Source: Octopus sinensis (Eukaryota). Taken from it: 64,000 nt of DNA. Positions 4,196 to 61,719 of the stretch are shown here, in pieces; position 1 is the first letter of the stretch, and every line of letters begins with the position of its first letter. The notes beneath the pieces were generated by a model. That model was not told the origin of the DNA, did not search any database, and saw nothing but the letters and a program-made list of their open reading frames with translations. The stretch covers positions 121,334,001-121,398,000 of the forward strand of contig NC_043000.1 of the NCBI RefSeq assembly GCF_006345805.1, given 5' to 3'. The position numbers and the translations under genes were made by a program.

Positions 4196-4594
4196 ATAAA
4201 AAGAATATCTTTATGGCAAAGATTAGAACTAACTGCGAAATATTAAAATACGCATTATTGATAAAAATATTAAAAAATCATTGACCATACAAAATACAAA
4301 AATATCCGGAGACACAGAAAGGCATGAAAAATGGAAGTAGACAGATATAAAAGAAGTTCTCAACGTTTCAGTACAATAAAAATTGTAGGAAAATATAATC
4401 AATCTAAAGACAATATCAGTTATAAGATATAGAGCAGAAATATGATATAGAGCAGGAATTATTGAATTGAAGAAGGAAGAACTAGCGGTTAAGGTGAGGC
4501 ACAAGCGATCGCGAGATCACAGTTTCATTTTCTGGACAAGTTCATGGGTTCTGTTCATGAGCATAACACTTCATCTCATCTATGTATGTATGTA

Positions 4595-16376: not shown

Positions 16377-16630
16377 CATATACATGCATACCTATTCAGA
16401 TACATAGATCCAGATATAAATTGGTATAGAAAGATAGATGCAGATATGTAAAACTGTTGGTTTACAACTTGTATGGACGAAATTTCCTGTTAATCATATT
16501 TATTTATTTAAGAATATAACTAAAGAAACACAATCACCTAGTTTGGTACACACACACAAACACGCAACTCTCTCTGTATATATATATATATATATAGATA
16601 TATATAGGAAAAAGCAACAAAAGGATTAAA

Positions 16631-16717
16631 TCTCGGTACGATCGTTTCGTACGAGGACATCTTTAATAAGCTACAAAAGATGCAGTGAAACAGATGGCTC
16701 GTACTCGTCAGCCGAAA
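16631..16717 (-). ncRNA. Type I hammerhead ribozyme, canonical core (left-arm copy)
   Basis: Reverse complement of the 17131-17218 motif; core, stems and triplet retained. Confidence 0.8.
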
Positions 16718-17130
16718 ATATCAGAGAATTCCCAACATCAAAAGGGGTAGACATAAAGAGATGTAGGATTAACTGCATTGAAGAAAGTTCGATTCATGGA
16801 GATCTGATGAAAGGTTTTAAACCTATAGAATTTATGCATGTCTACATATAGCTATATTGAATATTTGATCAAGTTATATGAAGAAAATTTTCGGATACAG
16901 TCATGCAAAATTCTTACTCGGATTTTCAGAAACTTTGCATGACTGTATCCGAAAATTTCTTCATATAACTTGATCAAATATTCAATATGAGCTATATGTA
17001 GACATGCATAAATTCTATAGGTTTAAAACCTTTCATCAGATCTCCATGAATCGAACTTTCTTCAATGCAGTTAATCCTACAATCTCTTTTATATCTACCC
17101 CTTTTGATGTTTGGGAATTCTCTGATATTT

Positions 17131-17218
17131 TTTCGGCTGACGAGTACGAGCCATCTGTATTCACTGCATCTTTTGTAGCTTATTAAAAATGTCCTCGTAC
17201 GAAACGATCGTACCGAGA
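17131..17218 (+). ncRNA. Type I hammerhead ribozyme, canonical core (right-arm copy)
   Basis: TTTCGG-CTGACGA(17137-43)-GTACGAG-[43 nt]-CTCGTAC-GAAA(17201-04)-CGATCG-TA-CCGAGA. 6-bp stem I (one G.U), perfect 7-bp stem II, palindromic stem III, GUA triplet. Confidence 0.85.
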
Positions 17219-17367
17219 TTTTAATCCATTCTTGTTGCTTTTTTCCTATTTATAATCACCCCACTTGTCGTATGGCTAACACCATATAGATATCCGGTGC
17301 ATCCTAGTTAAGGACCATATTCATGTGAATTCTTTAGAATTCACTAGAATCTCAATTACTTAACCGA

Positions 17368-60009: not shown

Positions 60010-60192
60010 TATTGGTTTCAAATTTTGGCACAAGTGCAACAAGTTCAGGAGATTGGAAAGTCGATTACATCAACCCCAGCGTTCAACTAGTACTTACTTT
60101 AACGACCCTGAAAGGATGAAATGCAATGGCGACCTCAACGGAATTTGAACTCAGAACGTAAAGACGAATGAAATACCGTTAGGCATTTTGCA
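60010..60192 (-). mobile_element. SINE family A copy
   Basis: gaaaggatgaaatgcaa...ggaatttgaactcagaacgtaaagac. Confidence 0.8.
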
Positions 60193-60288
60193 CATACTAC
60201 TTCATAACAATTGCAGTGTGGAAGATGTTTGTAAGCCATTTAAGAAACACACAAAAGCCGTTCGACTCACTTCAACATTTAAGTTTAA

Positions 60289-60338
60289 TTTGTCAAAATA
60301 TTTTCGTCGCTAAAATCCGCGACCTGTTCACTGACAAA
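60289..60338 (-). ncRNA. Type I hammerhead ribozyme, G3:C8 variant (left-arm copy)
   Basis: Exact reverse complement of 60360-60409. Confidence 0.7.
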
Positions 60339-60359
60339 AATCCGTGCTGCATCTGGATT

Positions 60360-60409
60360 TTTGTCAGTGAACAGGTCGCGGATTTTAGCGACGAAAATAT
60401 TTTGACAAA
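60360..60409 (+). ncRNA. Type I hammerhead ribozyme, G3:C8 variant (right-arm copy)
   Basis: TTTGTCA-GTGAACA(60367-73)-G-GTCGC-ggatttta-GCGAC-GAAA-ATAT-TT-TGACAAA. 7-bp stem I, 5-bp stem II, palindromic stem III, UUU triplet. Confidence 0.72.
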
Positions 60410-61719
60410 TTAAACTTAAACGTTGAAGTGAATCGAACGGCTTTTGTGTGTTTCTTAAATGGCTTACAAACACCTTCCACGCTGCAATTGTTTTCGTTCC
60501 AGCACACGATCTCAGATCAAATCACTTGCTATGCGAGTACATCTCCGTACTTCATAATAATTCGAACTTTATTATATAACTACACAAGATACTACTTTCA
60601 CAAAGACAACGTGCTAGTATGTTTTAAAATATTAATAGGTTATTGAGTTAAGAGAAAGAATATGAACAACGATGCGCCGAGGCCTTATTAATTTCCTTAT
60701 GTATTATATATGTCCGTCGTTACCTGATTTATTTGCTTGAAAACCAATCCAGTGGGCACTATCTGATAAGGGCCTTATGCTGGATGGGAGCGCGAACGAA
60801 TACATGGATAATAAGTAATAACACAAAATCCTTCTTCATTAAAATATTCTGTTTATGCTGTCAAAACGATGATGGAGTGTTTGTTAGTTGCTATTCTTCG
60901 ACAAGACACGCTGTGATACGAATAACATGCGTACCACTAAAGTAAATGATCCCAGCAAATTTCATAAGAATTCAAGATCTAATCAACATCGTTCCTCATG
61001 AATTGCAGTCAGACTGGATATTGTTCAAGACAATGAGCCTATTCAGAGAGACAAACTTTTAAGCCATATTACTCTTCAAGGCATTTCGGTAAACAATTCT
61101 CGAGGTATCGGCAAATATGGAATCATTTCAATATATTTCAGTTGTGAGCAAACAACAGTTTCGTATTCACGTTTCTTTACTGCAAATAGACTATAATTAA
61201 ATCTGTTTGACAGACCCTTTGCATGGCACACACACGCAAAACGCATGCGCAGACGCATTCTACACATATGATCGCATAGAGAAATTGGAAAACCTAATTA
61301 TTTTAAACATTAATTTCGTTGTTTCTGTTTTTTACTTGTTATGTTGCTTGTCATAATATTATTTCCTTTTATTTTGTTCTATATTAAATTCCTCCTTTTC
61401 ATGTCATCTCTAATCGAATTTCCCAATTGCAAAGTCTTTGTCTCTGAAGAATGAAGAAAATGGGAAAGAATTTAGTAAATACAAGAATAAATACAAAATC
61501 TTAGATGACAGTAAAATACAGAACACTGAAGGTGAAAAAAAAAAAAAAGAAATGGAGAGGAAAAATGAAAGACAGGAGAATAAGAAAGAAAAAAATTACT
61601 AATGATAAAAGGTAGAAAAAGTAAATGAAAGCATATGAATGGCGAAAGAAGTAGGAAATTATTGTTGAAAGTAGAATGAAGATTGAAGTAGAATATGACG
61701 TTAATGAAGAAGAACATAC

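What the first reader, a model, noticed from the sequence alone, without database searches (positions are those of the whole stretch)
60206..60492. Second palindrome hides a G3:C8-swapped hammerhead (GUGAACA core)
Seen: a 138-bp-arm palindrome unrelated in sequence to 16605 but with the same architecture. Stem I (7 bp), stem II (5 bp), GAAA and palindromic stem III are all correctly spaced. The core reads GUGAACA rather than CUGANGA, so positions 3 and 8 are both changed and pairing is kept. The four arm mismatches all fall outside the motif. Established: compensatory 3:8 swaps can restore HHR activity, and searches fixed on CUGANGA miss them. Inference: a natural variant ribozyme. The UUU triplet is normally a poor substrate, so activity may be low. 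Sequence at 60493-60550 may be the unpaired continuation of the pLTR.
Basis: partly seen in the sequence, partly recalled or inferred. Interest (0 to 1): 0.85.

Follow-up and report, generated by a model that had tools for sequence, protein, structure and literature searches.

The report
Swapped-core hammerhead in octopus retrotransposon
The palindrome is a short, folded-back piece of an abundant octopus jumping gene (a Penelope-like element) whose hammerhead RNA motif has its central C-G pair flipped to G-C in nearly all copies examined, while sister families keep C-G; it is likely a natural variant ribozyme, but cutting is untested and this copy is predicted to be blocked by its own antisense arm.

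Summary
Confirmed: 138-bp arms, four mismatches outside the motif, and a type I minimal hammerhead at 60360-60409 with core G3-U4-G5-A6-A7-C8-A9, an extra G and U17. No such motif arose in 20,000 shuffles. The insertion (60208-60548, 9-bp target duplication) is the 3' end of a Penelope-like element plus an inverted copy; 60493-60548 is the element's tail. The parent has long open RT + GIY-YIG frames and carries the motif about 1 kb after the stop codon. G3, C8 and U17 occur together in 137 of 146 copies; 1,403 exact matches of one pattern exist genome-wide. Two sister families and two outside relatives carry C3:G8 at the same place, another U3:A8, with paired changes in all three stems. So G3:C8 is a derived, natural compensatory swap. 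Cleavage is not shown; in the full palindrome the hammerhead stems cannot form. Engineered G3:C8 (partial rescue) and natural U3:A8 are published; ten literature searches found no natural G3:C8, but four key papers were unavailable. The scan noted G3-C8 candidates before in two other genomes (unchecked). Verdict: new variant of a known kind.

The parts
60199..60207 (+). Left target-site duplication (9 bp)
   Evidence: Same 9 bases at 60549-60557; 11-16 bp duplications at 7 more of 30 loci, most others in AT-rich or (TA)n sequence
60208..60354 (-). Inverted copy of the element's 3' end without the tail; includes the 11-nt 'spacer' 60344-60354
   Evidence: 93% identical over 148 nt to the 3' UTR of parent locus L136; arm coordinates
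60289..60338 (-). Mirror copy of the hammerhead motif (G3 at 60331, C8 at 60326, U17 at 60296)
   Evidence: Perfect complement of 60360-60409; descriptor hit on the - strand
60355..60548 (+). Sense copy: last 194 nt of the Penelope-like element, 5'-truncated
   Evidence: 40 best genomic hits 97-100% identical; common 3' end in 30 of 30 loci
60360..60409 (+). Type I minimal hammerhead motif: stem I 60360-66/60403-09, stem II 60375-79/60388-92, loop II 60380-87, GAAA 60393-96, palindromic stem III 60396-60401
   Evidence: Stems I and II are predicted with P 0.68-1.0 in the isolated arm; pair counts across three families
60367..60374 (+). Variant core G3 U4 G5 A6 A7 C8 A9 plus extra G
   Evidence: 97 of the first 100 listed of 1,403 matches read GTGAACA with positions 3, 7 and 8 left free; sister families read CTGAAGA and CTGATGC
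60402..60402 (+). U17; predicted cleavage between 60402 and 60403
   Evidence: Position by hammerhead numbering; T in 152 of 153 copies; cleavage not shown
60493..60548 (+). Unpaired tail (about 56 nt) between the two preferred 3' ends of the element
   Evidence: Of 167 hits, 53 end at 60489-60494 and 89 at 60545-60548 (60548 is also the query end, flanks checked)
60549..60557 (+). Right target-site duplication

Best explanation
The palindrome is a 5'-truncated, head-to-head insertion of a Penelope-like retroelement, and the motif in it is that element's minimal hammerhead with a natural G3:C8 core pair, which likely still cuts the parent RNA weakly after U17 when helped by dimerisation or the element's protein. 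Shown: element identity, position and strand of the motif, fixation of G3/C8/U17, and C3:G8 or U3:A8 at the same site in relatives. Inferred: the swap arose once on this family's stem from C3:G8 and was kept by selection on the 3:8 pair; a non-C base at 17 would have allowed it, because G3 with C17 would extend stem I and trap the core. Predicted: slow cleavage through the AAUAUU dimer helix; this window copy is inert, since on either strand the antisense arm is transcribed first and pairs with the whole motif.
For: [quoted passage not shown] Motif 919-1047 nt after the ORF, sense strand, in 6 of 8 ORF-bearing loci. Family B (about 55% aa identity): motif in 26 of 30 loci, all C3:G8. Family C: consensus CTGAAGA with C17, no G3:C8 in 38 rows, 34 distinct. 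Between the family A and C 3' regions the best non-microsatellite local alignment is the motif itself. 98.2% of cells paired; 4 of 11 pairs change on both sides (3:8 and one each in stems I, II, III); slid controls 26-50%. Tree: A sister to B+C with support 100; outgroups L197 and L199 C3:G8, L195 U3:A8. Subfamily-level changes: 0 of 43 core and stem positions, 4 of 8 in loop II, 12 of 138 in flanks, Fisher p=0.025 pooled. No variant at 3% or more at 60367-74 in 4 of 4 runs from four organism labels. C3G/G8C partly rescues a PLE hammerhead, which needed its protein to cleave (PMC11167929). G3-C8 is reported less active with C17 than with G17 (PMC3884650, data not shown there). Folding: P(3:17 paired) 0.67 for U17, 0.985 for C17.
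Against: No cleavage assay or read-end evidence. The swap is one evolutionary event, and a second change at position 8 would be complementary one time in three by chance. The covariation cells come from three families, not independent events. The subfamily test is small, flank-only p=0.07, and 30 loci were picked with a pattern that fixes the core. G3.U17 wobble is predicted in 67% of monomers and competes with the active core. Stem III does not form in the monomer (P=0.0). G8C alone costs about 10^5-fold and C3G restores only partly (review PMC8495972). In the anole element, cleavage is dispensable for insertion in vitro and no RNA-seq ends were seen at the site. Family B fixes A9C, so cores in this clade may be relaxed. 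One copy (L073) reads C3:G8, five read G3/G8. The parent protein has no Pfam or PDB hit of its own. Only 3 of 21 metagenome loci showed a motif (11 were too short or partial to show one).
Confidence: 0.62

Rival explanations
1. The motif is a true hammerhead descendant kept for its fold (binding or positioning the RT-endonuclease protein, or shaping the template near the priming sites) but no longer cuts at a meaningful rate.
For: Cleavage is not needed for insertion in vitro in the anole element. The family made thousands of copies that keep the uncut motif. G3.U17 wobble and no monomeric stem III. Family B tolerates A9C.
Against: U4, G5, A6, G12, A13, A14, A15.1:U16.1 and G10.1:C11.1 are invariant across three families, and the 3:8 pair stays Watson-Crick in all three forms seen. 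That pair is a feature of the active conformation (PMC3884650).
Confidence: 0.26
2. The core decayed neutrally in one founder element; G3 and C8 are complementary by luck and are shared only because all copies descend from that founder.
For: One event; one-in-three chance of complementarity; young copies are 97-99% identical everywhere.
Against: Older subfamilies about 88% identical changed loop II and flanks but not core or stems. Only positions 3 and 8 differ from the family C core. The two commonest stem I variants are A-to-G opposite T, which keep pairing.
Confidence: 0.1
3. The palindrome is a MITE or other DNA-transposon hairpin and the hammerhead likeness is chance.
For: Long inverted arms, high copy number, no Rfam hammerhead among the listed matches.
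Against: Fixed 3' end with variable 5' ends and 9-16 bp duplications; direct continuity with an RT-endonuclease ORF; 0 of 20,000 shuffles; canonical cores at the same site in sister families.
Confidence: 0.02

Closest known systems
Minimal type I hammerheads of metazoan Penelope-like elements (Cervera and De la Pena 2014, PMC4209133)
   Same: In the element's terminal repeat region, sense strand; extra base between A9 and 10.1; G10.1:C11.1; palindromic short helix III; U17 common (24 of 56 listed); copies on opposite strands close together.
   Different: Core pair G3:C8. In their list of 56 I count 53 C3:G8, 2 U3:A8, 1 U3.G8 and 0 G3:C8. The extra base here is G (their consensus H), and stem I is longer (7 bp).
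Natural U3:A8 hammerhead variants (Perreault 2011, PMC3088659; Schistosoma Cercyon elements, PMC4209133)
   Same: Natural compensatory change at the 3:8 pair that searches fixed on CUGANGA miss.
   Different: U3:A8 needs two transitions and keeps pyrimidine-purine order; G3:C8 needs two transversions and flips it, and puts G3 next to position 17.
Engineered C3G/G8C double mutants (anole PAc element, PMC11167929; review PMC8495972)
   Same: Identical 3:8 pair; partial rescue of cleavage, shown in a PLE hammerhead.
   Different: Laboratory mutants; here the pair is the natural state of a multi-thousand-copy family, with U17.
Neptune/Nematis-type EN+ Penelope-like elements (Craig et al. 2021, PMC8557442)
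   Same: RT, CX2-5CxxC linker, C-terminal GIY-YIG with CCHH spacing, (TA)n insertion bias, inverted upstream copy, one-sided tail, hammerhead near the 3' end.
   Different: Tail about 56 nt rather than 30-40; 3' UTR about 1 kb; the clade was assigned from motifs only, without reference sequences in the tree.

Membership tests
Hammerhead ribozyme, type I minimal (PLE type) | Three-way junction with stems I and II and a short palindromic stem III | tested here: met
   stem III only as a dimer helix (P=0.0 in the monomer)
Hammerhead ribozyme, type I minimal (PLE type) | Core U4 G5 A6, A9, G12 A13 A14, A15.1:U16.1, G10.1:C11.1 | tested here: met
   Present in the window; 14 deviations in 1,633 non-CpG core cells across copies; all but A9 invariant across 18 aligned rows of three families
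Hammerhead ribozyme, type I minimal (PLE type) | Literal C3 and G8 (CUGANGA) | tested here: not met
   G3 and C8 in 137 of 146 copies; 0 genome matches for the canonical core with this family's exact stem II
Hammerhead ribozyme, type I minimal (PLE type) | Watson-Crick pair between positions 3 and 8 | tested here: met
   CG in 9 and GC in 6 of 15 distinct rows; UA in L195
Hammerhead ribozyme, type I minimal (PLE type) | H17 (not G) at the cleavage site | tested here: met
   U17 in 152 of 153 copies
Hammerhead ribozyme, type I minimal (PLE type) | Site-specific self-cleavage | not testable with these tools
   Only contigs were available; genomic junction tally is a weak hint
EN+ Penelope-like element | Single ORF with RT and C-terminal GIY-YIG endonuclease | tested here: met
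   1042-aa open frame in L136; motifs read by eye; homologs score on RVT_1 (3 of 16) and GIY-YIG (2 of 16); the parent itself has no Pfam hit
EN+ Penelope-like element | Inverted terminal copy, one-sided tail, variable-length target duplication, AT-rich targets | tested here: met
Neptune clade | CX2-5CxxC linker and phylogenetic placement with reference Neptune elements | tested here: inconclusive
   Linker CX3CxxC present; Nematis shares it; no reference sequences in the tree
Non-LTR retrozyme | Head-to-tail tandem units each holding a type I hammerhead | tested here: not met
   Window copy is head-to-head and single; of 30 loci only L026 has a short tandem array, whose 84-nt unit does hold the motif
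MITE / DNA transposon | Fixed terminal inverted repeats and fixed-length target duplication | tested here: not met
   One fixed end, variable other end, duplications of 9-16 bp

The most novel reading that the evidence does not exclude
An active natural hammerhead with an inverted G3:C8 core, made possible by a prior change to U17, cuts the RNA of a still-mobile octopus retroelement in vivo, and the cut products are themselves reinserted, leaving an excess of copies that begin exactly at the cleavage site. This one PLE clade would then have sampled three of the four Watson-Crick pairs at 3:8.
Probability: 0.25. Interest if true: 0.65.

Novelty: new variant of a known kind. Interest (0 to 1): 0.47.

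Why it matters
It gives a natural, phylogenetically anchored case of the G3:C8 core pair, which I found in print only as an engineered partial rescue. Thousands of such motifs in one genome are invisible to CUGANGA descriptors, so hammerhead counts in retroelements are likely too low. The family trio (C3:G8/C17, C3:G8/U17, G3:C8/U17) with open parent ORFs is a ready test set for coupling between positions 3, 8 and 17, and for the open question of whether Penelope elements need their ribozyme. It is not a new ribozyme class or mechanism.

Tried and rejected
Rfam scan: no hammerhead among the 150 listed of 271 matches. Pfam and PDB sequence searches with the parent protein: no informative hit; the alignment profile gave one weak RT hit. 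L073, a lone C3:G8 copy, first looked like an ancestral subfamily; its 29 nearest loci are mostly G3:C8, so I do not use it as evidence. L072 and L074 lack proper stems and were dropped. Canonical core with the exact family stem II: 0 matches. My pattern fixed U17 by mistake, so it could not find C17 relatives; these came. Sequencing runs: no RNA holder listed, contigs only, so expression and cleavage ends could not be read. 5' junction test, hand tally: 16 of 100 listed rows start exactly at 60403 against 3-8 at each of six neighbouring positions; 5 of the 16 are explained by a 7-nt microhomology with the inverted arm; the control region gave 0-6 per position. This is post hoc and lies in a T run, so I count it as a hint only. 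No hammerhead was found after the ORF in L196, L198, L201-L204 or L209. L050 was left out of the tree (133 aligned residues). Papers not held: Lunse 2016, Martick and Scott 2006, Przybilski and Hammann 2007, Hammann 2012.

Full report
Observation. The arms are real: 60206-60343 and 60355-60492, 138 nt, four mismatches, all outside the motif. The right arm reads stem I (60360-66), GTGAACA (60367-73), an extra G (60374), stem II (60375-79/60388-92), GAAA (60393-96), palindromic AATATT (60396-60401), T17 (60402) and stem I 3' strand (60403-09). A descriptor allowing any Watson-Crick 3:8 pair hit 0 of 20,000 shuffles of the 194-nt segment and 0 of 30 window shuffles.

What the palindrome is. The sense copy belongs to a large repeat family. 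The 40 scored hits of 1,111 candidates are 97-100% identical. A 35-nt pattern has 1,403 exact matches and 0 control matches. A looser G3/C8 pattern has 4,396 forward matches against 732 control, suggesting roughly 7,000 motifs on both strands, often two per insertion. Thirty of 30 loci share the 3' end and vary at the 5' side, many with an inverted copy, many in (TA)n. Here the insertion spans 60208-60548 between 9-bp direct repeats; 7 more of the 30 loci show 11-16 bp duplications. Hit ends cluster at 60489-94 (53 of 167) and 60545-48 (89 of 167), matching the two-ended tail pattern described for Penelope-like elements (PMC8557442; PMC11167929). [quoted passage not shown] The motifs were read by eye and their names rest on PMC8557442 and my own knowledge. 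The protein has no Pfam hit itself, but 3 and 2 of 16 aligned homologs score on RVT_1 and GIY-YIG. The closest named homolog is labelled Octopus vulgaris and is 99% matched in G000, so the host is an octopus. In 6 of 8 ORF-bearing loci the motif lies 919-1047 nt after the ORF on the sense strand.

Is the core a real swap? Within the family, 97 of the first 100 listed matches read GTGAACA with positions 3, 7 and 8 free. In 146 copies covering all three sites, 137 are G3/C8/U17, 5 G3/G8, 1 C3/G8 and 3 other (the G8 copies are enriched by the L073 query). An older subfamily about 88% identical changed loop II and flanks but not the core. Changes above 10% frequency fall at 0 of 43 core and stem positions, 4 of 8 loop II and 12 of 138 flank positions (pooled p=0.025, flank-only p=0.07; sampling is biased toward intact cores). 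Four runs from four organism labels show no variant at 3% or more at 60367-74, though depth there is lower. Sister family B (about 55% aa identity) has a motif at the same place in 26 of 30 loci, all C3:G8 with C9; of 24 downstream copies 13 have C17 and 11 U17, U17 mostly in the copies closest to the query. Family C has CTGAAGA and C17 (38 rows, 34 distinct, none G3:C8) and differs from the window core only at 3 and 8. On 15 distinct rows from the three families 98.2% of cells pair and 4 of 11 pairs change on both sides, including 3:8; slid controls pair 26-50%. These reflect few events, not 15. Three of 21 metagenome relatives showed a motif after the ORF: L197 C3:G8/U17, L199 C3:G8/A17, L195 U3:A8/U17. 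The tree puts A sister to B+C (support 100) with these outside, so G3:C8 is derived.

How it likely works. Established from papers: minimal PLE hammerheads cleave weakly and as dimers through palindromic helix III (PMC4209133); in the anole element C3G/G8C partly restores cleavage, cleavage needs the element's protein, and insertion in vitro does not need cleavage (PMC11167929). Inferred: the parent RNA folds stems I and II (P above 0.9 in L136 context), pairs AAUAUU with a second copy, and cuts slowly after U17. G3 can pair with position 17: predicted 0.985 for C17, 0.67 for U17, 0 for A17, and G3-C8 is reported less active with C17 than with G17 (PMC3884650, data not shown there). U17 also occurs in C3:G8 relatives, so it likely came first and allowed the swap; this is untested, and the wobble may itself slow the ribozyme. 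At this locus the 138-bp hairpin (-234 kcal/mol) leaves stem probabilities near 1e-19 or lower, and on both strands the antisense arm precedes the motif, so this copy is predicted inert. A hand tally of 5' junctions gives 16 of 100 rows at exactly 60403 against 3-8 at neighbouring positions, 5 of them explained by microhomology, with 0-6 per position in a control region; I treat it as a hint only.

Comparison and novelty. All oddities but one are published for this class: extra base, palindromic helix III, U17 (24 of 56 by my count, including a UUU site in oyster), and natural U3:A8. G3:C8 is 0 of those 56. Searches returned no natural G3:C8 report. What I read: PMC4209133 parts 1-2 of 4 and supplement file 2 parts 1-2 of 3 (file 1 not searchable); PMC3088659 section 8, passages and a term search of 11 supplements with 0 hits (figures not held); PMC11167929 passages and the second half of the main section; PMC8557442 introduction and passages; PMC3884650, PMC8495972, PMC6765202 and PMC10085705 passages; bioRxiv 10.64898/2026.07.22.740005 part 1 of 5. 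Lunse 2016, Martick and Scott 2006, Przybilski and Hammann 2007 and Hammann 2012 were not held; the first and last, with supplements, could already list natural G3:C8. The scan's own notes hold two unchecked G3-C8 candidates in other genomes.

Verdict. Observation confirmed, interpretation supported at the level of homology and covariation, activity untested. New variant of a known kind; interest 0.47.

Noticed in passing
window 60391-60470 (family-wide): Runs X1 and X7 (RNA by guess only) show A-to-G at 60418, 60437 and 60457 in 8-24% of depth, against under 0.2% in X16 and X18 and 0-2 of about 157 genomic copies; none is listed in the unpaired tail. This fits A-to-I editing of transcribed hairpins, but the runs are from different organism labels and are not on record as RNA.
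   Followed up: partly
window 16605-17240 (motifs at 17137 + and 16711 -): The other palindrome holds a canonical CUGACGA hammerhead in each arm with a 7-bp stem II, a loop II of about 45 nt, palindromic stem III and A17; also head-to-head, unrelated in sequence.
   Followed up: partly
L075:4637-4689 and family B loci: Sister family B fixes A9C in its core and is split between C17 and U17, U17 mostly in the copies closest to the query.
   Followed up: partly
L195 around 2497: A metagenome relative carries U3:A8 together with C9 and U17.
   Followed up: no
L101 sense positions 4265 and 4629: Two copies, 364 nt apart, of an unrelated hammerhead-like motif with U3:A8 core, palindromic stem III and C17 beside a family B element.
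   Followed up: no
L026:1080-1694: A tandem array of about six 84-nt units, each holding the G3:C8 motif, upstream of a full 3' end; a retrozyme-like arrangement that would favour dimer cleavage.
   Followed up: no
L073:1501-1537: A single diverged family copy with C3:G8 and a damaged stem I; relic of an older lineage or chance double change.
   Followed up: partly
L136, L137, L138, L064: Several family copies keep long open frames (793-1042 aa), so the family may still be mobile.
   Followed up: no
window 60040-60198: The element sits next to what looks like a dispersed SINE-type repeat; the identification is from recall and was not tested.
   Followed up: no
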